Shown piece by piece: positions 23,263-37,555 of a DNA stretch of 64,000 nt; the first letter of the stretch is position 1; each line of letters begins with the position of its first letter. Both the position numbers and the translations under genes were made by a program. The notes under the pieces were generated by a model that was not told where the DNA came from, ran no database searches, and saw nothing but the letters and a program-made list of their open reading frames with translations. The stretch comes from a virus: the IMG/VR virus record IMGVR_UViG_3300044624_001054, positions 1 to 64,000 of that record; one strand, given 5' to 3'.

Positions 23263-23505
23263 ATGAATACCATGACACAAGAATCAGCATCTGCAACAGT
23301 GGACCAAAATGTCTTAACAAGGCAAGATCGCTGTGACACAGGTAACTGTCCTGCACAAGCATGGGTATTGGTAAAATTTCTTTCGGGAGAATTGTTGTTT
23401 TGTTCCCACCACTTTGATAAATTTGAAGCCGCACTAATTAAGGATGCCTATGAAGTCATTGACGAAAGGCATCGAATAAATGCAAAGTCTGAATCTTCTG
23501 CATAA
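23263..23505 (+). CDS. Small actinobacterial-type Zn-binding protein
   Basis: LT..DRCD...C.AQA.V...GELLFC.HH; RBS AAGGAG. Confidence 0.65.
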   Translation: MNTMTQESASATVDQNVLTRQDRCDTGNCPAQAWVLVKFLSGELLFCSHHFDKFEAALIKDAYEVIDERHRINAKSESSA

Positions 23506-23517
23506 TTAAATAGTCTC

Positions 23518-25832: not shown

Positions 25833-26003
25833 ATGAGCAAGCGAGAGGAGGTGACAGGGATGAGGTTCACTAAGGCTACCGTTCGCACTATCGTCAAGAA
25901 TGCGCGTTGCAATGATTGTGGTGAGAAGCACTACGATTCTATGGCTATCGTCAATGACGAGATCATGTGCGCTAATTGCCATAACGCTAAGGCGTTCGCC
26001 TAA
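25833..26003 (+). CDS. Small Zn-finger early protein
   Basis: CNDCG...CANCH, downstream of promoter 25805. Confidence 0.6.
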   Translation: MSKREEVTGMRFTKATVRTIVKNARCNDCGEKHYDSMAIVNDEIMCANCHNAKAFA

Positions 26004-26108
26004 CAACTAAATATTCCTAGGCAAATAAACCGCTTCGGGCGGGTGAGCCCTAGGCCAGACTGTCAGACCCCCCTGCTAGGGTAGGGGGTAGAAAGAAAGG
26101 GGTAGCAC

Positions 26109-26291
26109 ATGGCTACTAATGGATACCGCGCCGTGCGGATCGACGGCTTCGGATACGCTCCGATTGCATACACCCGTTGGACTACCCGCGAGGAGGCTAT
26201 GGCATACGCTCGCTATGCACAGCGTACTCGCGTGGGCGAGTGGGCCATACAGTCCAAGCGCAAGGTCATCCATAGGGTGGTGGGAGCATGA
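26109..26291 (+). CDS. Small early protein
   Basis: RBS AAAGGGG, downstream of promoter 26061. Confidence 0.6.
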   Translation: MATNGYRAVRIDGFGYAPIAYTRWTTREEAMAYARYAQRTRVGEWAIQSKRKVIHRVVGA

Positions 26292-26409
26292 TCGGCTTCG
26301 CACGCATTGACTACGCCGCTGCAGCACAGCAGCGTGAAGATTGGAAGGCGTGGCTGCAGGCTAAGGCTGCAGAGCGTAGACTGTCAGACCCTAGTGCTAA
26401 GGTGGAAGC

Positions 26410-26505
26410 ATGAGAACATTCGCGCAGCACGCGCTATCATTCGTCATCATCGGCGGTATCCTTATCGCCATGGCAATCGCTGGTGGAATAGAGGGAGCAT
26501 TCTAA
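26410..26505 (+). CDS. Leaderless 31-aa membrane peptide
   Basis: MRTFAQHALSFVIIGGILIAMAIAGGIEGAF, ATG 6 nt after the -10. Confidence 0.55.
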   Translation: MRTFAQHALSFVIIGGILIAMAIAGGIEGAF

Positions 26506-26780
26506 TGATTACCCGTGTAGAGTCCTACGGAACTAGCAACCTCATCAATGCTAAGGCTGCCCTCGCGCATCCCATGGCAGATGAGGTGTCTATCGCTCTA
26601 GGTGATGGAGCATACGCACGTTTTCCGCATACCGTCGAACTTGCATTCTTCAAGAATGGCGAGTGGGTTACTGAGCCTCTGCCAGAGTTGGCAGACTACT
26701 ACTCGCATGAAGTGTACCCCTACGTTTCCCTCATCGACTTCGCAATGTTCATGGAGAACTTCGGAACGGGGGAGGAGTGA
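26505..26780 (+). CDS. Hypothetical early protein
   Basis: TAATG overlap start with GAGGGAG RBS; MITRVESYG... Confidence 0.6.
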   Translation: MITRVESYGTSNLINAKAALAHPMADEVSIALGDGAYARFPHTVELAFFKNGEWVTEPLPELADYYSHEVYPYVSLIDFAMFMENFGTGEE

Positions 26781-26835
26781 TCATCATCATGGGAATCGTG
26801 TCTGCATTCCTTCTACTTGGAGTAGCCATAGGTCT

Positions 26836-26864
26836 AAAAAACCCTTGAAAATAAAGGGTTTTTT
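26836..26864. terminator. Bidirectional intrinsic terminator-like hairpin
   Basis: AAAAAACCCTT...AAGGGTTTTTT. Confidence 0.6.
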
Positions 26865-27090
26865 CGCACTTGACAAATTGCCAAGTGCGGGCCGGGTCCG
26901 CAATTTGGACATATCACCTAGGTTACGATTACGTTACGATGATCACGAATCACGGCATGTCGATTTGACAGACATATTGGACATATCACCGTTACCAACC
27001 TGTTATGAAAGTTGTCCGATTTGTATAGGTTTTGGATTAGGTAAATGTCAGTCCCCCATGATAGGTTGTACCTAGATAGAAAGGAACGAA

Positions 27091-27279
27091 ATGAACAACA
27101 CTCTCCATTCCCACCTCGTCTGTTGCTTCTGCGACAACGAGATCGGCTTCGATACCCGCGTGTGCGGAACGTGTCATGACTATAAGGGCATCATGACCGT
27201 GGAAGCCTTTGAGGACTACCTCAAGGTCGCCTATGATTGCGATTGCTTGTCAGACCTAGATGATAAGGTGTCAGCATGA
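27091..27279 (+). CDS. Small Cys-rich early protein
   Basis: CCFCD...CGTC; RBS AAAGGA. Confidence 0.6.
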   Translation: MNNTLHSHLVCCFCDNEIGFDTRVCGTCHDYKGIMTVEAFEDYLKVAYDCDCLSDLDDKVSA

Positions 27280-27554
27280 TTGATTCAGTAGCACGCATCG
27301 TTAGCACTCCCCTTCGTGAGTGCCCCCCGCTCTTTGAGTACGTTCTCAATGAGGGACCTGTCATGCAACTCGCTTGGCTTTCAGTAGAGCCAGAGGATGA
27401 TGATTGGTTTACCGTCACGTTTGTCGCCAATGGCGCGACGATCAAGTCACGCGGTGACGCGGAAACTCTTTGGCTTAGGCCAGAGGATAAGGATGATCCT
27501 GTGATTCAGGCGGAACTGATTACAGGTCTGGCTTCGATGGGGTTGGAGTTCTAA
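27276..27554 (+). CDS. Hypothetical early protein, leaderless
   Basis: ATG 6 nt after the -10 of promoter 27248. Confidence 0.6.
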   Translation: MIDSVARIVSTPLRECPPLFEYVLNEGPVMQLAWLSVEPEDDDWFTVTFVANGATIKSRGDAETLWLRPEDKDDPVIQAELITGLASMGLEF

Positions 27555-27757
27555 TGCCTAACGTAAAAGTCATTGACCGCCGTCCATTCGATATCAATAT
27601 GACCATGCAATGGAATGACATTCAGGAATTGCTCACACGCGCAGATCGTATGTGGGCATGTGCAGATAATCCAGCAGACTTTCAGGTGCTGGAACACATA
27701 GAGCAAACGCTGCAAGGTCTCGCAGATTCTATTCGAAAAAGACTTGACAAATCCTGA
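27554..27757 (+). CDS. Hypothetical early protein
   Basis: Overlapping start with GGAG RBS. Confidence 0.55.
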   Translation: MPNVKVIDRRPFDINMTMQWNDIQELLTRADRMWACADNPADFQVLEHIEQTLQGLADSIRKRLDKS

Positions 27758-27810
27758 AAGACGGGCCGGGCCGCGTTGTAAAAATGTTATATAAATAATT
27801 ACGTTACGAC

Positions 27811-27839
27811 TTGACAAGTCACGGGAATTTTGATAGGTT
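27811..27839 (+). promoter_or_regulatory. SigA-type promoter
   Basis: TTGACA-17-TAGGTT. Similar promoters at 29654 (TTGACA-18-TAGGAT), 30856 (TTGACC-17-TACTTT) and 35325 (TTGACC-17-TATACT). Confidence 0.65.
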
Positions 27840-27861
27840 CGACCTGTCGAAAGGAGGCAGC

Positions 27862-27987
27862 ATGGGTTCTGTCATTATTCCCGTCGCGTGCGACTGGCAC
27901 GCAGTCTACTCCATCCATGAGGATGGCGTATGGTATGGCCTCTACTGCGAGGAGTGTGATGAAACCTACCCGCCTGTGGCGGAGTAG
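27862..27987 (+). CDS. Small early protein (41 aa)
   Basis: RBS AAGGAGG; MGSVIIPVACDWH...YCEECD. Confidence 0.6.
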   Translation: MGSVIIPVACDWHAVYSIHEDGVWYGLYCEECDETYPPVAE

Positions 27988-28047
27988 GCCCGGCTCGCTG
28001 TCAGACCCCCGTGATAGGCTTACGATACGTTCTACGAAAGGATCGAA

Positions 28048-28179
28048 ATGGCTCGCTGTGAAGACTACCCGTGCTGTGGCCACACCGATGGCCTTGGCTG
28101 CAACTATGTCCCCGATATGGACTTCTACTATGAGCAGGCCCGTCGCCGTCTTGATGACGACTACTATGACTACTACTGA
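28048..28179 (+). CDS. Small Cys-rich early protein (43 aa)
   Basis: RBS AAAGGA; MARCEDYPCCGH... Confidence 0.6.
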   Translation: MARCEDYPCCGHTDGLGCNYVPDMDFYYEQARRRLDDDYYDYY

Positions 28180-28246
28180 AAGGCCCCGGCCCAGACTGTC
28201 AGACCCCTATGCTAGTCTTACGACACACCTACGAAAGGACACGAAA

Positions 28247-28369
28247 ATGGGCGAGGATATCATGTGCGATCTGTGGTTTGAGTCGCAGTACGAGGTTCCT
28301 GAGTTTGATCCGTGGGAGGCGGAGGCAGAGGTCATCATGGCCCAATGGGATGAGCCTGACTTCTTCTGA
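28247..28369 (+). CDS. Small acidic early protein
   Basis: RBS AAAGGA; MGEDIMCDLWFESQYEVPEFDPWEAEAE... Confidence 0.55.
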   Translation: MGEDIMCDLWFESQYEVPEFDPWEAEAEVIMAQWDEPDFF

Positions 28370-28485
28370 AGTCAGCCCCGGCCCGAAAATTCTCACATTG
28401 TCAAGTCTTACGATGTGACTTAAGACACACACGAAAACGGTCACGGGAATGCCTGACTGTCAGACCCCTATGGTAAGGTGAAGTC

Positions 28486-28733
28486 ATGAACCTAGAAGAA
28501 CTATACGAGAACTTCCTCCGTTTGGAGGCCACCCTAGACCTTGACCCCAACCCTTGGGTGTCAGACCCCCATGATAAGGTAGGTGCATGATGACAACGGT
28601 TGAGTTTGAGAAGGCATGGCTTGACGTTTACTACATGTTGGAGGACAACGCCTTCGACTATGCGCGGTGCATGTATCTGGACGACGGCACTCTGATTGTT
28701 GATGGGGTGCGCTATGAGGAGGTGCCTTTCTAA
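28486..28733 (+). CDS. Two consecutive leaderless small ORFs (28486-28590 and 28587-28733)
   Basis: Each ATG lies 6 nt after a TGTCAG-N10-TAAGGT promoter. Confidence 0.55.
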
Positions 28734-29105
28734 TGCAGAATATCTACAAGGTGTACTACCTTGGGCAGTACATGTGTTCATTCTTTGAGCGTGATGCTGC
28801 GCTCAACTGGATTGTCGATCTCGTTGCTGAAGGCGAGGGGGATTTCGGTGACTACGAGATTCTAGATGGGAGTGACTTCCTATGAGTTACCACCCCATCA
28901 CTCACGATGAATTCGATCAGATATTGCGCGAGTCGGAGATTCGTTGTCGGACCCTCATGATAGGATCTTTCCATGTTGAGAAGCAGGAAGCAGGCAGGAA
29001 AGCACAAGACTAATTGCTACTTTGGCTGCTGCCGTAGCATGACCAAGAAGCAGGAACGTCGCTACATCAAGCGGCGGGAAACTAACGAGTGGAAGAAGGA
29101 TCAGA

Positions 29106-29321
29106 ATGTGGCAGGATAAGGCAGCGTGCGCTGGAATGGATTCTAGCGTGTTCCTTTCGGGAGTGACCTCCCGCGTAAACATTGCTAAGGCGGTATGTGC
29201 ATCATGCCCCGTCATCCAAGAGTGCCTAGCGTTTGCACTTGCTAACGAGGACTATGAGCCCCATGTCTATGGTGGCATGACAGGTGAAGAGCGTAAGCGC
29301 ATTGCATTGGCGGTGGCATGA
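29106..29321 (+). CDS. WhiB-family transcription factor
   Basis: WQDKAAC...AKAVCASCPVIQECL.FAL...VYGGMT.EER. Confidence 0.88.
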   Translation: MWQDKAACAGMDSSVFLSGVTSRVNIAKAVCASCPVIQECLAFALANEDYEPHVYGGMTGEERKRIALAVA

Positions 29322-29689
29322 TGGTAAAGGTAGAGATGACACGCGGTGACTGGGATGCAGTCCTAACATGCCTGCGAGAATTGATGGATCAGGGTTGGAT
29401 CGTGAAGGGTCTCTATAATGAGATCATTGACCAAGTAGATGAACAGGAGTACTGATATGAGTTACCTTGATTACCTTCCCGCCGATGGCGATTTCACAGA
29501 GGATGAACTGTGGGAGGCTATCGCAGAAGATTTGGGAATCGATCCATCAGAGATCATGGATGGGGATTTGGTGGATTTTATCTAATACCACCCCGCGAAA
29601 GCGGCCCCGGCCCGTTTTCCAAGAATACTCATAGGTTTACGACCTCTTACGATTTGACACGGGGGTCACGGTCATGGTAGGATCACTCT

Positions 29690-29836
29690 ATGAGTAATCG
29701 TGTGAGCCCCCGCCGTAGTGCGGAGCATAATCGTATCGTTGTTGAGCGTCGTCGCTCTAATGCCGCGCAGCCTCATAAGAATAAGGCTAAGTATTCGCGC
29801 AAGGCCAAGCATCGTAACCGTTTCGTTACCGACTGA
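29690..29836 (+). CDS. Small basic leaderless protein
   Basis: MSNRVSPRR...RRSNAAQPHKNKAKYSRKAKHR, ATG 6 nt after TAGGAT. Confidence 0.6.
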   Translation: MSNRVSPRRSAEHNRIVVERRRSNAAQPHKNKAKYSRKAKHRNRFVTD

Positions 29837-29885
29837 TCCCCATATTCCCCCTTTCATTGTCAGACCCTAGTGCTAGGATCATTCC

Positions 29886-30443
29886 ATGATTACAGTTACC
29901 GCCCCTGAGGGCACACTCGCATACGCTACCTACGCCGCTCGCTTTGAGAGCCTTATCATGACCGCTACCCTCTCGCAGACTGAGGCTGCTAGCGTCTGGT
30001 ACCATGACGCCGCTGCCGTTGCCTCTGAGGTTGCTCGCAACCTTGGCACCTCACTTGAGGTTGGCGCGTCTATCGTTGCAGCATTCTCCCCGCGTGAGCG
30101 CTGGTCCACTAACGTCGCTAAGGCTATCGCGTACTCGCTTGGCTCGCGTCCCGCTGGCCTTGGCAATAACCTTCGCATGGCAGACGCCGCAGTCGCGGCA
30201 GGCTTTGACGCTCTCAAGGGTGCAAAGACTAACGCATTCGCTCGCGCTATCGCAGGCGACACTAACGCAGTTGTCATTGACGTTTGGATGATGCGTGCGG
30301 CAGGCATGGAAACCGACTCACCTAACAAGTCTCAATATGCGCTACTGTCTGAGGCTGTCGTGGGAGTCGCGCAGCAGTTTGGCATCACGCCGCGCACCGC
30401 GCAGGCTCTCATCTGGATCATCGTGCGAGGGGGTGCAGCATGA
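29886..30443 (+). CDS. Conserved phage early protein (DUF7178-like, HhH-like)
   Basis: WY..A, AAFSPRERW..N, GAKT.AF, VVIDVWM.RA, QALIW. Confidence 0.6.
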   Translation: MITVTAPEGTLAYATYAARFESLIMTATLSQTEAASVWYHDAAAVASEVARNLGTSLEVGASIVAAFSPRERWSTNVAKAIAYSLGSRPAGLGNNLRMADAAVAAGFDALKGAKTNAFARAIAGDTNAVVIDVWMMRAAGMETDSPNKSQYALLSEAVVGVAQQFGITPRTAQALIWIIVRGGAA

Positions 30444-30914
30444 ATAAGCCTAAGCCATATGTTCGTCTAGTTACTGACTCAGGTAGTGGGGAGTCGCAAC
30501 TGACTAGAATGTTCGACAACGCAGAGGAAGCCCTGTCGTATCTTAGCGGATACATCGGAACGTATCCCATCACTATCCTAGAGTTTGACCTAGATTGGAG
30601 TTGGAAGTGAACGACATAACGCTAGATAATTTTCGGGAGATGCTGCGCGATTTTGTGGGAGTGTGATATGGAGATTTTTCTCGTCGCTATCGGATTCTTC
30701 CTCGCCCTAGGAGTAATAATCGGACTCATGGACAAATAGGCTTGACAGCCCCGCTTCGGCGGGGCCGGGCCGCTTTGTACACATATGTCCATATATTTAC
30801 GATTACGATTAAGAAATCACAGGAATATTTCACAGTAATTTTTAAGAATGTCCCCTTGACCATCACGGCAATATCGTGTACTTTAGAGTCATAACTGAAG
30901 AGGGGAGGAAATAG

Positions 30915-31124
30915 ATGGGTGAATACCTAGTTGCTGATAAGTTATATGGGTTCTCTATAGAGCCTAATGATATTCTCCGCACCGCCGACGGAAATGAGAT
31001 AGTCGTTTCCTTTGTAGATTCGGTGGAAGGAGGGTATGATATTCACTATAAAGACCTTGACGGAGAGGAAGATATCTACCACCTCCCCGAAGATGACATG
31101 ATCGACCTACTCATTCTAGAATAA
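30915..31124 (+). CDS. Hypothetical early protein
   Basis: RBS GGAGG. Confidence 0.6.
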   Translation: MGEYLVADKLYGFSIEPNDILRTADGNEIVVSFVDSVEGGYDIHYKDLDGEEDIYHLPEDDMIDLLILE

Positions 31125-31134
31125 GGAGAAACAA

Positions 31135-31290
31135 ATGGCTAAGAAGAAGGCAAACAAGTTCTCATATCTTGAGACTTGGAACACTCGCTACGGGGTTCAG
31201 ACTCGTATTGTTACCCGTGTTGATGGCAAGTTCGTTGATTCAACCCCCGCACTTGAGACACTCCGCAAGGGCGTCCCTGCTGGTCGCTGA
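31135..31290 (+). CDS. Small basic protein (51 aa)
   Basis: RBS AAGGAG; MAKKKANKFSYLETWNTRYG... Confidence 0.6.
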   Translation: MAKKKANKFSYLETWNTRYGVQTRIVTRVDGKFVDSTPALETLRKGVPAGR

Positions 31291-31298
31291 CCAGTTGG

Positions 31299-31330
31299 GC
31301 GAACCTGGACATGTTCGCTAAAACTGTCCA
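31299..31330 (+). ncRNA. Conserved H-type pseudoknot, copy 1
   Basis: GCGAAC CTGGACAT GTTCGC TAAAAC TGTCCA. Confidence 0.65.
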
Positions 31331-31413
31331 ACATTCATGGTTGAGATCCTAGTAAATTATGGGATAGGTTATGTAGAGGATCTGCGCTGACACTCCCCAT
31401 ATACCATGGATAA

Positions 31414-31494
31414 GCCCGAGTGGTGGAATTGGCAGACACGCACGACTCAAAATCGTGTTCCATTGGAGTGTGGGTTCAAGTCCCACCTTGGGCA
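31414..31494 (+). tRNA. tRNA-Leu(CAA)
   Basis: Acceptor GCCCGAG/CTTGGGC, loop CTCAAAA, variable arm. Confidence 0.9.
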
Positions 31495-31660
31495 CTAGGT
31501 GGGGGCATGTGACCCGCTATCACACCTTGTTTGGCGAACGGAAGGTGGGATTCCTTCCTAAGATAGCATCGACTCGCTCCCCCACCAACCTTCTAAAAGT
31601 CTTGACTACTGTCAGACCCACATGATAGAGTTCTACTACCTACTAGAGAAAGAGACTGTT

Positions 31661-32050
31661 ATGGGAGACCGCGCTAACTTTGGAATCCGTCAGAATGACG
31701 GCAACATCATCTTCATCTACGGACATTGGGCAGGAGCAGGGATGCTTGCTAAGTTTGCTAATGCTCTTGACCATGTTCAGAATGTTGGTCGTATTGACGA
31801 CCAGGCTTATGCAAATCGCATCATCATCTCGCAGTTGGTTGGCGAGTCTTGGTCTGGCGATCTTGGCTGGGGTGTTACTGTGAACTACCTTGCAGACAAC
31901 GAGCATAAGGTTCCTGTCTATGACTTTGCACTCCGCGAGGTAACTCTCTATGACTATGATTGGAAGTCAGGCGTGCTGACTGATATGATTGTCACGTTCT
32001 CGCTGAACGAGTTCATCCGTAAGTACGCTAAGACCTTGGTGGAGGTGTAA
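31661..32050 (+). CDS. Conserved phage early protein
   Basis: MGDRAN...IYGHWAG, downstream of promoter 31610. Confidence 0.65.
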   Translation: MGDRANFGIRQNDGNIIFIYGHWAGAGMLAKFANALDHVQNVGRIDDQAYANRIIISQLVGESWSGDLGWGVTVNYLADNEHKVPVYDFALREVTLYDYDWKSGVLTDMIVTFSLNEFIRKYAKTLVEV

Positions 32051-32051
32051 C

Positions 32052-32495
32052 ATGATTGACCCTAGCATGACTGACATTCATCCTTACCCGCCAACTATGC
32101 AGGAGTTGGAGTTGCGGGTCATCGAACTGAATACAGAGATCAACCGTCTGACTTCAGAGGTAGAGGCTATACAGAGTGACCGTGACTACTGGAGGGGCCA
32201 GACGAACTATCGTCAGGCCCAGATTGACGGTCTTGAGTCATATCTCAAGGAGAACTTTGACTACATTGATGAGAATGTGACGCAGGAACTTGTTGATATC
32301 TTCTCTCTTACTATCACCAGGGACTATGATGTGACAATCACCGTCACATTCTCTGGTGTTGTTACTGCTCCTCTCAATTTCGATATGGATAGCCTTGAGG
32401 ATTCTCTGAATGCTAGTCTTGAGGCATCCTACTACGGAGATGTAGAGGCAGACTTCTCAGAGGATCATATGGAGATTGACTGGACAGAGAGTTAG
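32052..32495 (+). CDS. Acidic coiled-coil protein
   Basis: RBS GGAGGT; heptad N-terminus. Confidence 0.65.
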   Translation: MIDPSMTDIHPYPPTMQELELRVIELNTEINRLTSEVEAIQSDRDYWRGQTNYRQAQIDGLESYLKENFDYIDENVTQELVDIFSLTITRDYDVTITVTFSGVVTAPLNFDMDSLEDSLNASLEASYYGDVEADFSEDHMEIDWTES

Positions 32496-32527
32496 GCAGC
32501 GGTGGTATCCTAACTACGCCTCCGCCC

Positions 32528-32564
32528 TGCAGACCTGAGCATGTCTTGCATAATAAACTGCTCA
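32528..32564 (+). ncRNA. Conserved H-type pseudoknot, copy 2
   Basis: TGCAGAC CTGAGCAT GTCTTGCA TAATAAAC TGCTCA, 2 nt before tRNA-Glu. Confidence 0.65.
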
Positions 32565-32566
32565 CG

Positions 32567-32639
32567 GCTCCCATCGTCTAGAGGCCAAGGACGCCGCCCT
32601 TTCAAGGCGGTAGCACGGGTTCGAATCCCGTTGGGAGTA
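32567..32639 (+). tRNA. tRNA-Glu(UUC)
   Basis: Acceptor GCTCCCA/TGGGAGT, loop CTTTCAA. Confidence 0.92.
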
Positions 32640-32711
32640 CAACCCCTGGAGAGAATGTGCGGAATCCGCCACCAACCCCACCATTCCGCTTCCCTCTCCA
32701 GGGGCCTAGTC

Positions 32712-32754
32712 GGGCGGGGGGAAGTTGACGGTCTCCTTCCCCCTGCCTTGTTTT
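32712..32754 (+). terminator. Intrinsic terminator
   Basis: GGGCGGGGGGAAG...CTTCCCCCTGCCT followed by TGTTTT. Confidence 0.6.
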
Positions 32755-32923
32755 ATCGGCCCGGCCCGAAAAATTTAATCTGTCAAGCATTTACGATCTC
32801 TCTTTTACGATCACGGGAATTTGTTACCAGAAATTTATCTAAATAATCTGCTAGATATTCTTGAGACTGTCAGACCTAGGGTGTATAGTTCTTCTATAAG
32901 TTCAATCAACTAAGGAGATACAT

Positions 32924-33919
32924 ATGGCACACGCAGTAGAGGTTGGCGCTAACGGAGAGCAGGCTTTTGCTTCCTTCCGCGAACCCGCTTGGCATGGTCT
33001 TGGTACCGTGTTCTTTGAGGAGAAGTCCACCCGCGAGATGCTGGATGCGGCTTACCTTTCTAACTGGGACGTTCGCCTTGAGGCCGTTCCTTACCCTTCC
33101 GACTACAATGTGATCACGCCTTCCTACATGGTACTGCGTGATAACCCCTTTGACCAGGGAACTGACGTTCTCGCTACCGTTGGCGAGCGTTACCACGTTC
33201 TTCAGAACGAGGATCTTTTCGACTTTGGTGATGCGCTGCTTGACGGTGGTCGCTGGGAGACCGCTGGCTCTATTCGCCAGGGTCGCGTTGTGTTCGGCTC
33301 GCTTGCGCTTGAGCGTGAGACTGTCCTTGATCCCAACGGCGTTTCGGATGTTGTGAAGTCCTACCTTCTCGTCCACACCTCGCATGACGGTTCTACCGCT
33401 GTGCAGGCTTCCATCACTCCCGTCCGCGTTGTGTGCCAGAACACTCTGAACATGGCTCTTCAGGGTGTGAAGCAGTCCTTCAAGATTCGTCACACGCAGA
33501 CTGTCGGTGGCAAGGTTATGGCTGCACGCGAGGCTCTTGCTCTCGCAAACACCTACCTGGATGAGTTCGACAAGGAGGCCAAGGCTCTCATCGCCAAGGA
33601 TATCACCAAGGCCAAGTTCGATGCCATCGTGCAGGCTGTCTACCCTCGCCCTGAGGCTGATGCCAAGGGTGCTGTCAAGAAGTGGGAGAACAAGGTCGAT
33701 CTCATTGAGGAGATTTGGACCTCTGACACCAACAACATGATCGCTACCACCGCGTGGGGTGCGTTCAATGCAATGACGGAGCGCCTTGACTGGTTCCGCA
33801 AGGGTCGTGGCGAGCGGGGTGCTGAGAATGTTCTCGCTGCTGCTAGTGGTTTCGATCCTGTCACCAATGCGGAGAAGGGTCGCATCCTGAAGGCTGTCAA
33901 GGAGATCGCTTTCGCGTAA
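32924..33919 (+). CDS. DUF932-family protein (LGT_TIGR03299-like)
   Basis: REPAWHGLG, VGERYHVLQN, WETAGS, SHDGS, TPVRVVCQNTL, IRHT, TAWGAFNA.TE; strong GC-host-type codon bias. Confidence 0.85.
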   Translation: MAHAVEVGANGEQAFASFREPAWHGLGTVFFEEKSTREMLDAAYLSNWDVRLEAVPYPSDYNVITPSYMVLRDNPFDQGTDVLATVGERYHVLQNEDLFDFGDALLDGGRWETAGSIRQGRVVFGSLALERETVLDPNGVSDVVKSYLLVHTSHDGSTAVQASITPVRVVCQNTLNMALQGVKQSFKIRHTQTVGGKVMAAREALALANTYLDEFDKEAKALIAKDITKAKFDAIVQAVYPRPEADAKGAVKKWENKVDLIEEIWTSDTNNMIATTAWGAFNAMTERLDWFRKGRGERGAENVLAAASGFDPVTNAEKGRILKAVKEIAFA

Positions 33920-33923
33920 TCAA

Positions 33924-33952
33924 ACATCCTGGGCATGATGTAAAACTGCCTG
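33924..33952 (+). ncRNA. Conserved H-type pseudoknot, copy 3
   Basis: ACATC CTGGGCAT GATGT AAAAC TGCCTG, 3 nt before tRNA-Trp. Confidence 0.65.
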
Positions 33953-33955
33953 CAC

Positions 33956-34023
33956 GCCACCCGCGCTGGGCGCAGACGAGATTCCAACCCTTGTCGTGCA
34001 GAGTTCGATTCTTTGGGGTGGTG
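33956..34023 (+). tRNA. Non-canonical tRNA-Trp(CCA) with reduced D-arm
   Basis: Acceptor GCCACCC/GGGTGGT, D-arm GCGC-TGG-GCGC, loop TTCCAAC, T-arm CAGAG-TTCGATT-CTTTG. Confidence 0.65.
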
Positions 34024-34027
34024 CTTG

Positions 34028-34100
34028 GCACTTGTAGAGTAGCGGTTATCTCGCCACCCTGTCACGGTGGAGATCGTGGGTTCGAATCCCATCAGGTGCG
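34028..34100 (+). tRNA. tRNA-Asp(GUC)
   Basis: Acceptor GCACTTG/CAGGTGC, loop CTGTCAC. Confidence 0.92.
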
Positions 34101-34245
34101 CTTGACAAATCTAAGAATTTGGGGCCGGGCCGTCCAAGAATATTCTAAGACTCTTTTACGATCTTCTTACGAAAGTCACAGGAATTTTCGCTGGAATATG
34201 TCAGACCCACATGCTACGCTTTATGTATTCGACAGAAGGAGCATT

Positions 34246-36411
34246 ATGAACATCTACGGCATAACAGAAGAAGATATGGCCTCTCCGACCTTTCCCAACG
34301 AGAATGATATTCTTGCATCTATCGTCAAGAACATGAAGGATATTCTAGATGGTGAGTGTGAGCGACCTGATATTGCTGCCCTTGCCGTGTCGATAGACTT
34401 CTTTGTCTTAGATCACTACATGCGTAATGGACGCATCCCTACTGCTTGGAGGAACTAATGGCAACCATCACATTCTCAGTAGAACTTATCTACGAGGGAA
34501 CTGGTCACTTCATGGATTTTGAATATGACTATGAGACTTGGGATGATATGGCCACCGAGGAAGCGGAAGCATTGGCTGACGATCTTGCTAGTGGTCGTAA
34601 CCCTGAGTTGTTCAATGAGATCATGGCTAACATTTCTATTGTCCCCACCGTTGAGAATGTGGTGGCTGATGAATCTGAATGATGTTGAGACTGGTTGCTA
34701 CATTGACGGTAGTCATCGTGATTCCATCGAATTCTCTTTGCTAGTTATCGAAATGGCTCATGACTATGGATTTGAGTTGGATTGGGACCAGTTTGTCAAG
34801 GATGCCGCCAACATGCGCGATCCTGGTTACATGATGGAAGAGGACGAACTGAACGAGGTTCTAGATGCTATTGAATGGACGTATGAGGATGCGCTAGACT
34901 ATCTCAACATCAACACCCGCGAGCCTTTGATGTGGGTGGTAAGAGACCAGAGTTTGTTTCTTATGACATATGATGAGGCTGATGACTAAACACCATAGTT
35001 ATATACTTTAGCAGGTATATCTATGCTAATTCACACAACTATGTATCTGGAGGAATGATGCTAGCCAGTAATATGCTTACCAAAGATCAGATGCTAGAGC
35101 AGTATGAGGTTCTAGGATTTGCTTATGGCATGTGTGTAGTCAAGCGCATGTCTGATGGTGTGAAGGGGACATTGGATTTTGGAGATCATCCTATCCTCCG
35201 TCCCGAGGATTCTTCCAACCCGCTTGGCTATACTCGTTACTACTACAACTTTGTGGAGGCGTGATGAGTAACATTGTATGTTACTTCAATCCAGAATTCG
35301 CTGGTAAGTTTATTGCCAACTGGCTTGACCCCGCCATGTTTGACGACTATACTCTAGATATTGTTGATGATTGCCTAGTGCTTAGGGAGAAGTGATGGAT
35401 GTTTCGGTAGAGGTTCAGAATGTTAGTTTCATTATTGACGCAGAGGATGAGAGCGAGGCTATCGCTAGGGTAGAGGAGTTTCTCCAGGAGTACGCCTGGG
35501 ACTGGACCCAGCCCTACGCGGGATAACTGATGAAACACACATTCATTGTAACGGTAGAGTGCGAAGAAGCAGCAGACGCTTTGCTTGTAATGGGCGAGCG
35601 TTTGGACTATGATGAGGACTATGGATTCCCCTACTCAGTAGATTGGAAGTGGAAGTGAAACAATATCGTATTGTCCTGCCCCTGGAAGTATGGGGAGAGT
35701 TTGAGGATGACGAGGATCATGAGTTTATCAAGGAAGTCCTAGGAGATAAGTTGGACGGACTCTTGATTTCTACCGACTACCTGTGGGATTATTGGAAAGA
35801 CGCCAAAGTCGAACCTATGGAGGGCTAATGACTAATATCACCATGCACCTTACTGCTAACTTTTACCCGCCCATTCCCGCTGACATTCAGATGCGCGTGC
35901 AGGAGATTTTCGATGAGTTGCAGCGCGACTCCGATCCATATATTCTAGGCTGGGCAGACGTTCCCGAGAATTGGGACTATGACGTATCTGATGAGTCTGT
36001 GTTTGATCGCACCTATGAGTTGCCGAATGGCGCGGTAGTGACAGGACGTAGCCTACTTGATGATCTGCGCCTGTGGGATGCCCTGTGGTGGGACTGTGAT
36101 GAGCCTATGGACACTCTCGCAGACTACGAGCGTGAGCAGAAAGAATATGCAGGCCAACTATCATTTTGGACGGTGGAGTAATGAAGGTTAGATTTCTAGA
36201 GATTGACTGTGGACCAGGCGGTACAGTATGGGAGTTGCACGCTAACACCCATGAGCATCTTAGGACATATGACAGCGAGGCGGCTATGCTGAATGATGCT
36301 GCCCTACTTAGAATGGTCAATGTAGATTATAGATTCTACACTCAGGCTGAATATAACCTAGAGGTACAAGTAGAGATCATGACAGAGAATGGGGCATGGA
36401 ATGAACGATAG
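34246..36411 (+). other. Operon of about 10 small, mostly acidic, hypothetical early genes
   Basis: Overlapping ORFs with GGAG RBSs, e.g. 34246-34458, 34458-34682, ~34669-34989, 35055-35264, 35643-35828, 35828-36181, 36181-36411. Confidence 0.6.
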
Positions 36412-36655
36412 AGAGTATCTAAGAAGTTTGGGATTTGAGGTAGGTGATCGTGGTCGGTACTCTAAGGAGATGAAGGCTGCCCTTGCTACCCGCGACGGAG
36501 TAGATCCTGATGCCCCCGCTTCTGAGTATGGTGCTAATGATAGGTTCGCGGACGGTCGGTATCGTGTAGAGCGATCCAATGGTCTTCCAAGGACACCAGA
36601 CGTTCCAGGTATTGACTTTGGCCCTGGACTTGCGGTATCATCGACACGGAGGTAA
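36401..36655 (+). CDS. Lsr2-like DNA-binding-domain protein
   Basis: REYLRSLGFEVGDRGRYSKEMKAAL matches the Lsr2 C-terminal domain with its RGR AT-hook. Confidence 0.7.
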   Translation: MNDREYLRSLGFEVGDRGRYSKEMKAALATRDGVDPDAPASEYGANDRFADGRYRVERSNGLPRTPDVPGIDFGPGLAVSSTRR

Positions 36656-36658
36656 AAC

Positions 36659-36937
36659 ATGGAGGATAAGGTATCCAAACAGATATTGTCAGGCTTTGCA
36701 GATAGTAGGCTCAATCCCTCACATCTTGCATGGCTTGTCAAGTTGCATACAACGCCACAGATCGACAATATGCTAAAGGAGTTCTTCTATTATTACACCG
36801 TGTTCCGCAATCAGGATACAGAAGAAAACGATGCACGATGGATGGGAGAGAAGTTGATGAATGACCTACGAAATCCAGACTATGATGGTCTAAGCAATCC
36901 TCCTCCCCCTGGTACACGCATAGTGTTTGCAGATTAG
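36659..36937 (+). CDS. Hypothetical early protein
   Basis: RBS GGAGGT. Confidence 0.6.
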   Translation: MEDKVSKQILSGFADSRLNPSHLAWLVKLHTTPQIDNMLKEFFYYYTVFRNQDTEENDARWMGEKLMNDLRNPDYDGLSNPPPPGTRIVFAD

Positions 36938-36941
36938 ACAT

Positions 36942-36970
36942 ACTTCCTGGGCATGAAGTTAAACTGCCCC
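36942..36970 (+). ncRNA. Conserved H-type pseudoknot, copy 4
   Basis: ACTTC CTGGGCAT GAAGT TAAAC TGCCCC, 2 nt before tRNA-Tyr. Confidence 0.65.
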
Positions 36971-36972
36971 TA

Positions 36973-37052
36973 GCCTCGCAGCCCCCAAGGTGGGGGAGCG
37001 GTCTGTAAAACCGTCGCCATTGGCACGCTTGGTTCGATTCCAAGGCGGGGCA
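36973..37052 (+). tRNA. tRNA-Tyr(GUA)
   Basis: Acceptor GCCTCGC/GCGGGGC, loop CTGTAAA, variable arm. Confidence 0.85.
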
Positions 37053-37080
37053 CTTGACAAATCGATTCGGGCGTGCCGGG

Positions 37081-37555
37081 CTATCCACAAGTTATCCACA
37101 ATACCTTTACGAACCTATTACGAACGATCACGGAAAAATCACAGGAATTTTTAAGACATTAAATTTTATTAATGTCACACACATATGATAGGATGGCACA
37201 TGGAAATTTTATTATGTATTATCATAGGGCTATTATGGCTAGGATTATTCACTCCACCGCCCCGCGATTAGCGGCGGCGGTGTGTCATTTATATCCCCTA
37301 TATAACTATGTAAACAATAGGGTAAATACCTATCATTTCTGATAATATATCTTCAACTTTTGATAACTTTTATGTCAAAAGTATTACGATCCGACCATAA
37401 AAAATCACTGGAATTTTTGGCATATTCGCCTATATTTATCTAATTAGACATTACGAACGCGCCTAAAAAATCACTGGAATATTTACCTTAAAATATTCTC
37501 ATATACACGAAGTTATCCACAGGTTATCCACCATTACGATCCCGCCTGTGGATAT
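37081..37555. promoter_or_regulatory. DnaA-box cluster
   Basis: TTATCCACA at 37092 and 37513; one-mismatch boxes at 37081 (CTATCCACA), 37524 (TTATCCACC) and 37547 (TGTGGATAT). Confidence 0.6.

What the first reader, a model, noticed from the sequence alone, without database searches (positions are those of the whole stretch)
31299..36970. Four covarying RNA pseudoknots between a stop codon and a tRNA: possible RNase P-made, structure-protected mRNA 3' ends
Seen in sequence: copies at 31299, 32528, 33924 and 36942 share stem1-CUGRRCAU-stem1'-AAAC-UGYYYN. Stem 1 differs in every copy yet stays paired (GCGAAC/GTTCGC, AGAC/GTCT, ACATC/GATGT, ACTTC/GAAGT). Stem 2 covaries (TGGACA/TGTCCA, TGAGCA/TGCTCA, GGGCA/TGCCY). 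All follow a stop codon closely. Three end 2-3 nt before a tRNA 5' end (Glu, Trp, Tyr); the fourth precedes another structured RNA and then tRNA-Leu. Established: RNase P cuts at tRNA 5' ends, leaving the upstream mRNA without a terminator hairpin. Inference: the pseudoknot, perhaps with an A-minor triplex from AAAC, shields the released early mRNA from 3' exonucleases, similar in logic to the MALAT1 triple helix and mascRNA. A processing signal or small ligand/protein-binding RNA is also possible.
Basis: partly seen in the sequence, partly recalled or inferred. Interest (0 to 1): 0.8.

Follow-up and report, generated by a model that had tools for sequence, protein, structure and literature searches.

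The report
Phage RNA pseudoknot capping message ends
The four repeats are real copies of a tiny knotted RNA fold, widespread in phages and absent from Rfam, that sits after the last gene of a transcription unit and, in this phage, right before a tRNA; it most likely shields the end of the message left when the tRNA is cut away, but this is untested.

Summary
Four, and only four, copies of a 29-34 nt H-type pseudoknot lie at 31299, 32531, 33924 and 36942, all on the + strand. Both stems are supported by compensatory changes, within the window and in several hundred homologues.

In this phage each knot ends one transcription unit. Three knots lie 2-3 nt before a tRNA. The fourth abuts tRNA-Leu in four relatives but is separated from it here by an 83-nt structured insert.

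The tRNA link does not hold for the whole family. Only 11-20% of homologues touch a tRNA. When they do, the spacer is almost always 2-7 nt.

The general rule is a position a few nt after an efficient stop codon, always in the sense direction. T-rich tails and promoter-like motifs are enriched just downstream.

My best reading (0.45) is a non-terminating cap for the 3' end of the upstream message, with RNase P making that end here.

The main rival (0.25) is a coremin-like barrier to 5'-to-3' decay or to ribosomes that protects downstream RNA.

I found no Rfam family and no paper describing it. This scan has already reported the same motif many times on other DNA.

The parts
31299..31330 (+). 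Pseudoknot copy 1. S1 is 31299-31304 with 31313-31318; L1 is C31305; S2 is 31306-31311 with 31325-31330; L3 is TAAAAC.
   Evidence: (30.4 bits). It lies 8 nt after the TGA at 31288-31290 of a 51-aa ORF.
31331..31413 (+). 83-nt structured insert between copy 1 and tRNA-Leu. It has an outer stem, CATGG with CCATG, and a crossing inner pair of helices.
   Evidence: It is present only in the window, L005 and L007. Two helices show compensatory changes. It is absent in L006, L010, L012 and L022, where the knot abuts tRNA-Leu. No Rfam hit. The nested fold z-score is only -1.6.
31414..31495 (+). tRNA-Leu(CAA)
32531..32564 (+). Pseudoknot copy 2. S1 is 32531-32534 with 32543-32546, extendable to 32529 with a bulged U. 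S2 is 32536-32541 with 32559-32564. L3 is long, 12 nt.
   Evidence: (28.0 bits). It lies 35 nt after the TAG at 32493-32495 of a 147-aa ORF.
32567..32640 (+). tRNA-Glu(TTC), 2 nt after copy 2
33924..33952 (+). Pseudoknot copy 3. S1 is 33924-33928 with 33937-33941. S2 is 33930-33935 with 33947-33952 and includes two G-U pairs.
   Evidence: (45.2 bits). It lies 4 nt after the TAA at 33917-33919 of the 331-aa ORF.
33956..34024 (+). Atypical tRNA-Trp(CCA), 69 nt with a reduced D arm, 3 nt after copy 3
   Evidence: ARAGORN calls it only at -ps80. It is not called at default settings or by Rfam. Relatives L010 and L012 have a tRNA-Trp called at default settings at the same place.
34028..34101 (+). 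tRNA-Asp(GTC)
   Evidence: In 39 relatives the knot abuts tRNA-Asp directly.
36942..36969 (+). Pseudoknot copy 4. S1 is 36942-36946 with 36955-36959. S2 is 36949-36953 with 36965-36969, 5 bp.
   Evidence: (45.2 bits). It lies 4 nt after the TAG at 36935-36937, at the end of a run of about 12 tightly packed small ORFs (34247-36937) that has no internal knot.
36973..37053 (+). tRNA-Tyr(GTA), 3 nt after copy 4
31608..31638 (+). Promoter-like repeat D1, copy 1 of 4. The others start at 32866, 34197 and 37171. It marks the start of the next unit.
   Evidence: repeat family D1. One search gives sigma-70-like hexamers at 31602 and 32861.

Best explanation
The element is a compact H-type RNA pseudoknot. 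Stem 1 has 4-6 bp, loop 1 is one C, stem 2 has 5-6 bp, there is one unpaired junction base, and loop 3 is A-rich and ends in AAAC.

It is transcribed as the last part of a message and acts as a non-terminating cap for that message's 3' end. In this phage each early unit reads promoter, ORFs, knot, tRNA(s), next promoter.

Proposed mechanism:
1. RNA polymerase reads through the knot into the tRNA.
2. RNase P cuts at the tRNA 5' end.
3. The upstream mRNA is left ending in the knot plus a 2-3 nt tail.
4. That tail is too short for PNPase, RNase II or RNase R to grip.

Elsewhere in the family the same knot would be exposed in other ways: termination at a U-rich tract, or exonucleases trimming back from a distal end.

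Shown: the fold, its strand, its position after stop codons, one knot per unit here, and the tight spacing to tRNAs.

Inferred: RNase P cleavage there (from established knowledge of tRNA maturation), the loop-3 triplex, and resistance to exonucleases.
For: Fold:
- Stem-1 pairs take four Watson-Crick types with no unpaired cells.
- Stem-2 pairs switch between AU and GC (77 against 30, none unpaired).
- The covariation score is 0.447 against 0.152 in shuffles, and at most 0.087 when partners are slid.
- An unbiased regex gives GG/CC, AG/CT, GA/TC, GC/GC and AT/AT, with 3 mismatched cases in 202.

Sense orientation only:
- 250 knots on the gene strand and 0 on the other.
- 150 of 150 model hits are on the + strand.

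It belongs to the upstream cistron:
- 94 of 113 knots have an ORF stop within 60 nt, with a mode of 4-7 nt.
- The distance to the next start codon is broad, 10-150 nt.
- Promoter-like motifs occur in the next 60 nt in 27 of 116 cases, against 6 upstream and 9 in controls.
- T-rich tails occur in 14-28%, against about 6% that I estimated from base composition.
- In relative L013 the knot is followed by a promoter and no tRNA.

One knot per unit in the window:
- The window holds four knots, four tRNA units and four promoter-like repeats.
- There is no knot inside the 12-ORF unit.

tRNA coupling:
- 49 of 81 first-in-cluster tRNAs in relatives have a knot within 10 nt upstream.
- Almost no knot has its next tRNA between about 20 and 70 nt downstream.
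- The spacer mode is 3 nt, range 2-11, with one outlier at 18.

Upstream genes:
- They use efficient stops: TAA is 82% and 59% against 55% and 44% background, and tandem stops are common.
- They include Hsp20, major head protein, SSB and ribonucleotide reductase.
Against: - No RNA-end data were available, so the 3' end is inferred.
- In Staphylococcus phietaviruses, Lactobacillus phiEF-1.1 and Geobacillus D6E the knot follows low-copy portal or minor-head genes and precedes the high-copy scaffold and capsid genes. In two of these it lies just after a terminator-like hairpin with a T run. That placement fits protection of downstream RNA better.
- A plain hairpin would also block 3' exonucleases, so this model does not explain the strongly conserved junction sequence (C, CA-N-G, AAAC-UG).
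- The core resembles coremin, which blocks 5'-to-3' enzymes.
- With a 4-7 nt spacer, a terminating ribosome must open stem 1.
Confidence: 0.45

Rival explanations
1. The knot is a coremin-like roadblock against 5'-to-3' decay. It stops a 5'-to-3' exoribonuclease such as RNase J, and so protects the RNA downstream of it: tRNA precursors here, scaffold and capsid messages in Firmicute phages.
For: - The core matches the coremin motif GUCCGAAGACGUUAAACUAC. Both have a hairpin whose loop starts with C, loop-to-spacer pairing, and the string AAAC-U after the hairpin. The D6E copy reads GTC-CTGAGTAA-GAC-GTTAAAC-TGCTC.
- The knot sits upstream of scaffold and capsid genes in Staphylococcus, Lactobacillus and Geobacillus phages.
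- The clear hits in cultured phages have Firmicute, actinobacterial, cyanobacterial, alphaproteobacterial or crAss-like hosts. Enterobacterial hits were partial matches inside genes. One BLAST query found nothing in 5,426 E. coli genomes.
Against: - The hp2 hairpin that coremin needs for Xrn1 resistance is not enriched downstream: mean z is -0.40 against -0.43 in controls.
- About a quarter of knots in unrelated viral contigs are followed within 60 nt by a promoter-like motif, so they would lie outside the downstream transcript.
- Spacing is tight to the upstream stop, not to the downstream start.
- A tRNA needs no 5' protection, because RNase P removes the leader.
- The class comparison was underpowered: Gammaproteobacteria 2 of 401 against Clostridia 4 of 400.
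Confidence: 0.25
2. The knot is a ribosome barrier or insulator. Placed at the mRNA entry channel when the stop codon is in the A site, it halts ribosomes that miss the stop or scan on after termination. This keeps them out of tRNA precursors and neighbouring units.
For: - The 4-7 nt spacing from stop to knot equals the spacer of frameshift-stimulating pseudoknots (the geometry is from established -1 frameshifting knowledge).
- Few knots lie closer than 4 nt to the stop.
- Coremin blocks scanning ribosomes and stimulates frameshifting.
Against: - The spacing is not strict. It is 35 nt in copy 2, and about half of homologues lie more than 9 nt from the stop or have no nearby ORF.
- Upstream stops are already the most efficient kind, TAA and tandem stops.
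- No slippery heptamer precedes the window copies (read).
- Read-through would add only a few codons.
Confidence: 0.1
3. The knot is a binding site for a small ligand or a protein, so it works as a riboswitch-like or operator RNA. The conserved junction nucleotides would form the binding pocket.
For: - The junction sequence is invariant (C in loop 1, CA-N-G, AAAC-UG) while the middle of both stems varies freely.
- Its size and A-rich tail recall preQ1-I aptamers (own knowledge).
Against: - No expression platform is evident. The knot does not overlap ribosome-binding sites, and canonical terminators are not enriched on either side.
- Neighbouring genes have no common function.
- Rfam riboswitch models give no hit, even in a 131-nt search.
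- Stem 2 uses six of the eight loop bases, which leaves little room for a pocket.
Confidence: 0.08
4. The knot itself ends or pauses transcription, acting as a pseudoknotted terminator.
For: - T-rich tails directly after the knot occur in 14-28% of homologues, against about 6% that I estimated from base composition.
- Staphylococcus and Lactobacillus phage copies are followed by TTTTT or TTTTCTT.
- Promoters often follow.
Against: - The four window copies, and every tRNA-linked copy, are followed within 2-7 nt by a tRNA that must be co-transcribed, and they have no U tract.
- Most homologues lack a T-rich tail.
Confidence: 0.07

Closest known systems
Coremin motif (xrRNA-C) and its Watson-Crick variant (xrRNA-WCC) of beny-, cucumo- and other eukaryotic RNA viruses (PMC10520033, PMC10321173)
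   Same: - Both have a short hairpin whose loop begins with C (Y), followed by a spacer containing AAAC-U that pairs back to the loop.
- Both have an H-type topology with a one-nucleotide loop 1.
- Both are under 35 nt.
- Both are often found in 3' UTRs or intergenic regions.
   Different: - The hosts here are DNA phages and prophages.
- The loop has 8 nt and forms 5-6 canonical stem-2 pairs. Coremin has 3 pairs, or non-canonical contacts.
- There is no conserved second hairpin, hp2.
- The knot is anchored after stop codons and before tRNAs.
- Resistance to any nuclease is untested.
Luteovirus-type -1 frameshift pseudoknots (BWYV, PLRV)
   Same: Both are compact H-type knots. Each has a C at the start of loop 1, an unpaired junction base and an A-rich loop 3 placed to lie in the minor groove of stem 1 (comparison drawn in PMC10321173).
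   Different: - No slippery heptamer lies upstream and there is no extended -1 frame.
- The knot follows a stop codon.
- Stem 2 is twice as long.
MALAT1/MEN-beta triple helix with mascRNA (own knowledge)
   Same: The logic is the same. RNase P cutting at the 5' end of a tRNA-shaped RNA creates the 3' end of the upstream transcript, and a compact tertiary structure right at that end replaces a terminator or poly(A) tail.
   Different: - Here the downstream RNAs are real tRNAs.
- The cap is a pseudoknot, not a U-A-U triple helix formed with an A-rich tract.
- Only 11-20% of family members adjoin a tRNA.
Upstream pseudoknot domain plus tRNA-like structure of tobamo- and tymovirus 3' UTRs (own knowledge)
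   Same: The order is the same: stop codon, then pseudoknot(s), then a tRNA-shaped RNA.
   Different: - Those are the termini of RNA virus genomes, and the tRNA-like part stays attached.
- There is no sequence similarity.
Bacterial 3' stabilisers: terminator hairpins, REP elements, and RNase III-processed hairpins of T7 early mRNAs (own knowledge)
   Same: The proposed job is the same: a structure at or near the 3' end of a cistron that stops 3'-to-5' exonucleases and sets segmental stability within an operon.
   Different: - Those are simple hairpins without a conserved sequence.
- This element is a sequence-conserved pseudoknot that polymerase must read through.

Membership tests
Coremin xrRNA-C / xrRNA-WCC | hp1 of about 4 bp with loop consensus YGAD or YGNNAD | tested here: inconclusive
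   The phage loop has 8 nt, C-U-G-N-N-Y-A-H. Y, G and A fall in the same order, but with two extra bases that extend stem 2 (consensus). The paper reports one resistant octaloop that does not fit a simple extension of the consensus.
Coremin xrRNA-C / xrRNA-WCC | Conserved spacer GUUAAACUAC after hp1, pairing to the loop | tested here: inconclusive
   AAAC-U-G is invariant in 103 of 103 and 150 of 150 aligned copies. GUUAAAC occurs in many copies. The last bases differ, GYY instead of AC, and they form Watson-Crick pairs.
Coremin xrRNA-C / xrRNA-WCC | Second hairpin (hp2) directly downstream, required for Xrn1 resistance | tested here: not met
   The 36 nt downstream fold no better than control windows: z is -0.40 against -0.43. 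Only where a tRNA follows does a helix sit there.
Coremin xrRNA-C / xrRNA-WCC | Stalls a 5'-to-3' exoribonuclease | not testable with these tools
   This needs an enzyme assay.
-1 frameshift stimulatory pseudoknot | Slippery X XXY YYZ heptamer 5-9 nt upstream and an open -1 frame | tested here: not met
   The four window copies are preceded by stop codons with no slippery heptamer. Upstream stops are mostly TAA or tandem.
preQ1-I riboswitch (RF00522) and other Rfam families | Match to the family covariance model | tested here: not met
   No match at gathering score, none at E<=10 over 6 kb, and none at E<=10 over 131 nt.
preQ1-I riboswitch (RF00522) and other Rfam families | 5'-UTR position with control over a ribosome-binding site or terminator of functionally related genes | tested here: not met
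   The knot sits after stop codons of unrelated genes. It lies 10 nt or more upstream of most downstream start codons.
MALAT1-type ENE triple helix with RNase P-released tRNA-like RNA | tRNA-shaped RNA immediately downstream whose 5' cleavage makes the upstream 3' end | tested here: inconclusive
   tRNAs start 2-3 nt after three window copies and 2-11 nt after 58 homologues. Cleavage itself is inferred, and most homologues have no tRNA.
MALAT1-type ENE triple helix with RNase P-released tRNA-like RNA | U-rich internal loops clamping a downstream A-rich tract into a U-A-U triple helix | tested here: not met
   There are no U-rich loops. The only A-rich part is the 4-6 nt loop 3.
Intrinsic terminator | G+C-rich hairpin followed at once by a U tract | tested here: not met
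   The terminator scan finds none at the four knots, and tRNAs follow within 2-3 nt. A minority of homologues do have T-rich tails.

The most novel reading that the evidence does not exclude
Phages use a sequence-conserved, coremin-like pseudoknot as a portable 'end of message' module. Where it is fused to a tRNA gene, RNase P cleavage creates a knot-capped mRNA 3' end. That would be a prokaryotic counterpart of the MALAT1-mascRNA mechanism. It would also mean that one small RNA fold serves as a nuclease or ribosome barrier in DNA phages, in giant viruses (per earlier notes of this scan, not checked here) and in plant RNA viruses.
Probability: 0.3. Interest if true: 0.85.

Novelty: new variant of a known kind. 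Interest (0 to 1): 0.7.

Why it matters
If the reading holds, this is one of the most widespread unannotated cis-acting RNA elements of phages.

- Copies occur in well-studied Staphylococcus aureus, Lactobacillus and Corynebacterium phages.

It would give a concrete rule for how phages set the stability of single messages inside long read-through transcripts. It would also explain why many phage tRNA genes sit exactly where they do.

The element could be a 30-nt part for stabilising RNAs in bacteria. The likeness to plant-virus coremin raises a question that can be tested at the bench: is one minimal fold a general mechanical barrier to RNA-processing enzymes across domains of life?

For annotation, a covariance model of this motif would mark the ends of transcription units in uncultured phage genomes.

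Tried and rejected
Searches that found nothing:
- Rfam at three sensitivities gave no hit.
- Searching papers for the motif strings and for topic words found no description of the phage element.
- A megablast of the region against cultured phages gave no match.
- BLAST of one knot against E. coli genomes gave no match, but a single stem-1 variant is weak evidence.

Analyses that were not informative:
- Nested folding of single copies recovers only stem 2, with z-scores from -0.2 to -1.6, because such programs cannot model knots.
- A test for enrichment at convergent gene junctions used a crude ORF caller that was too noisy, with 24% 'convergent' background. I discarded it.
- Comparing classes with and without RNase J gave Gammaproteobacteria 2 of 401 and Clostridia 4 of 400, excluding the seed genome. 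The test is underpowered and I stopped there.

Readings rejected:
- A coremin-style hp2 hairpin downstream is not enriched.
- Stop-codon read-through and frameshifting: the stops are efficient and there are no slippery sites.
- Canonical terminators beside the knot are not enriched.

Rejected on anatomy alone, from my own knowledge:
- Pistol and HDV-like ribozymes: the P2/P3 or P3/P4 parts are missing.
- Integron attC sites, IS200/IS605 ends and DGR hairpins: wrong size, no repeats, unrelated upstream genes.
- ToxI-like antitoxin repeats: the copies are not tandem.

Other checks:
- The other two tRNA clusters of the window (23518 on the + strand, 52993 on the - strand) have no knot upstream.
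- The archaeal hits in the genome scan are partly chance matches, with stem 1 of only 1 bp. The plausible ones come from metagenome bins, so presence in archaea is not established.

Full report
**What is in the window.**
The window is the first 64 kb of a 106.6-kb IMG/VR virus record. The record has 39.8% G+C, with a roughly 50% G+C island at 26-37 kb.

The combined motif CTGRRCAT, a gap, then AAACTGYY occurs four times, all on the + strand, and nowhere else in the record. A covariance model built from unrelated homologues scores the four copies at 45.2, 45.2, 30.4 and 28.0 bits. The next match scores 11.8 bits and on reading is not a knot.

The anatomy is that of an H-type pseudoknot:
- stem 1 of 4-6 bp, closed by an invariant C-G pair;
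- loop 1 of one C;
- stem 2 of 5-6 bp (UGRRCA with UGYYYN);
- one unpaired junction base;
- loop 3 ending in AAAC.

- Copy 2 lies 35 nt, not a few nt, from its stop codon.
- The 'tRNA-Trp' is atypical and is detected only at a relaxed ARAGORN threshold.
- The 8-mer alone is not enriched.

**Is the fold real?**
Yes. An exact 18-base pattern found more than 119 viral contigs, and 98 of the 121 matches have the same 23-nt length. In an alignment of 103 copies, stem-1 pairs take all four Watson-Crick types with no unpaired cells.

That pattern fixed stem 2, so I tested stem 2 separately. A regex that left its middle free, run over 2 Mb of fetched loci, gave:
- GG/CC 125
- AG/CT 65
- GA/TC 5
- GC/GC 2
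- AT/AT 2
- non-complementary 3

On 150 model hits from relatives, 113 of them distinct, one stem-2 pair is AU in 77 and GC in 30, with none unpaired. The covariation score is 0.447, against 0.152 in shuffles and at most 0.087 when partners are slid. The usual caution about related sequences applies. Even so, the slid controls and the transversion pairs make chance unlikely.

**Context in this phage.**
Each knot follows the last ORF of a unit, with a tRNA next:
- PK1 follows a 51-aa ORF (next tRNA is tRNA-Leu);
- PK2 follows a 147-aa ORF (tRNA-Glu, 2 nt away);
- PK3 follows the 331-aa ORF (the atypical tRNA-Trp, 3 nt away, then tRNA-Asp);
- PK4 follows a run of about 12 packed small ORFs (tRNA-Tyr, 3 nt away).

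A promoter-like repeat occurs four times, once after each tRNA unit. So there is one knot per unit, and none inside the 12-ORF unit.

PK1 is 83 nt from tRNA-Leu. In relatives L006, L010, L012 and L022 the same knot lies 3-4 nt from tRNA-Leu. The 83 nt are an insert found only in the window, L005 and L007. Two of its helices show compensatory changes. In L013 the knot is followed directly by a promoter, with no tRNA.

**Context in the family.**
In 80 loci of relatives there are 250 knots on the gene strand and none on the other strand.
- 49 knots are followed by a tRNA within 10 nt.
- 49 of 81 first-in-cluster tRNAs have a knot just upstream.

In unrelated viral contigs, 13 of 113 knots touch a tRNA and none has a tRNA 10-200 nt away. 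The spacer from the last stem-2 pair to tRNA position +1 has a mode of 3 nt.

The more general rule concerns the upstream ORF. In 94 of 113 cases an ORF stops within 60 nt upstream, most often 4-7 nt before stem 1. These stops are enriched for TAA and for tandem stops. The upstream genes are diverse: Hsp20 in 16 cases, major head protein in 4, plus SSB, helicases, ribonucleotide reductase and many unknowns.

Downstream, T-rich tails and promoter-like motifs are enriched. Canonical terminators are not, and hairpins are not.

The motif also occurs in genome assemblies of many bacterial phyla; I did not check whether those copies lie in prophages. Among cultured phages it occurs in Staphylococcus, Lactobacillus, Geobacillus, Corynebacterium, Moorella, Nostoc, Synechococcus and roseobacter phages, a crAss-like phage and a microvirus. 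In the Firmicute siphoviruses it lies between the portal or minor-head gene and the scaffold and capsid genes.

**How it most likely works.**
The knot belongs to the upstream cistron. The evidence is its tight spacing to the stop, its strict sense orientation, one knot per unit here, and promoters or T-rich tracts after it.

In this phage it must be read through by polymerase, because a tRNA follows within 2-3 nt. RNase P cleavage at the tRNA 5' end is established biology. It would leave the mRNA ending in the knot plus a 2-3 nt tail.

I therefore favour a non-terminating 3'-end cap, with confidence 0.45. RNase P would be the end-maker here. U-tract termination or trimming back from a distal end would serve elsewhere.

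The exonuclease resistance and the loop-3 triplex are inferences.

**The main rival.**
The lead to coremin came from earlier notes of this scan. I checked it against the papers.

Coremin is GUCCGAAGACGUUAAACUAC. Its hairpin loop starts with Y and pairs with the spacer. It stalls Xrn1 and ribosomes from the 5' side. The phage consensus shares the C-first loop and the AAAC-U string, and many copies share GUC...GAC-GUUAAAC.

The hp2 hairpin that coremin requires is not a family feature here. Stem 2 is much longer. So I do not file the knot as a coremin member.

The likeness, together with the placement before scaffold and capsid genes in hosts that carry RNase J, keeps a 5'-to-3' barrier model alive at 0.25. 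Ribosome-barrier, ligand- or protein-binding and terminator models get 0.10, 0.08 and 0.07.

**Novelty.**
I found no Rfam family and no paper describing this element in phages.

This scan has reported the same motif more than twenty times on other DNA, so this window is not its first sighting.

What this window adds:
- a clear one-knot-per-unit architecture;
- the tRNA spacing statistics;
- the natural 'experiments' among relatives, namely the knot with a tRNA, with an insert, or with a promoter only;
- the Staphylococcus phage carriers, which make bench tests easy.

Noticed in passing
window 31331-31413: An 83-nt insert sits exactly between pseudoknot 1 and tRNA-Leu. It has an outer stem and two crossing inner helices, and two of the helices show compensatory changes against L005 and L007. 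It is found only in these three close relatives and has no Rfam match. Its closing stem ends 5 nt before the tRNA.
   Followed up: partly
window 33956-34024: An atypical 69-nt tRNA-Trp(CCA) has a 3-bp D stem, a very small D loop and an A-C mismatch in the anticodon stem. ARAGORN at default settings and Rfam both miss it. Relatives L010 and L012 have a tRNA-Trp that is called at default settings at the same place.
   Followed up: partly
window 31608-31638, 32866-32896, 34197-34227, 37171-37201: A promoter-like repeat occurs four times, TGTCAGACC, 7-8 nt, then TAnnnT, once after each tRNA unit. Another first-reader note on this genome reads these as PafBC/RecA-NDp-type promoters. If so, the host would be an actinobacterium. 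I did not test this.
   Followed up: no
window 32784-32812, 34135-34163, 34079-34111, 37031-37063, 34172-34188, 37135-37151: Operator-like repeats lie between the tRNAs and the next promoter. TTTACGAT is repeated. CTTGACAAATC follows directly after tRNA-Asp and tRNA-Tyr. TCACAGGAATTTT occurs twice. Together they look like a shared regulatory cassette.
   Followed up: no
window 26000-37000: This region has about 50% G+C, against 27-43% in the rest of the window. The knot-and-tRNA units lie in this island.
   Followed up: no
window 23478-23517: Before the Ile-Arg-Ser tRNA cluster, a plain hairpin (ATGCA...TGCAT) sits between a stop codon and the first tRNA, 12 nt upstream of it. It occupies the same position as the knots but is a simple stem-loop.
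   Followed up: no
L330 1801-1834 (Staphylococcus phage B166) and L331 (phage 96): The S. aureus phage variant reads CGAC-CTTAGCAT-GTCG-TTAAAC-TGCT. Only 4 stem-2 pairs are possible, and a U-rich run follows directly. The B166 record annotates this spot as a BPROM-predicted promoter.
   Followed up: partly
L205 1950-2040 and L206 1960-2040: In Lactobacillus phage phiEF-1.1 and Geobacillus phage D6E the knot lies 8-25 nt after a terminator-like hairpin with a T run, and 30-70 nt before the scaffold gene.
   Followed up: partly
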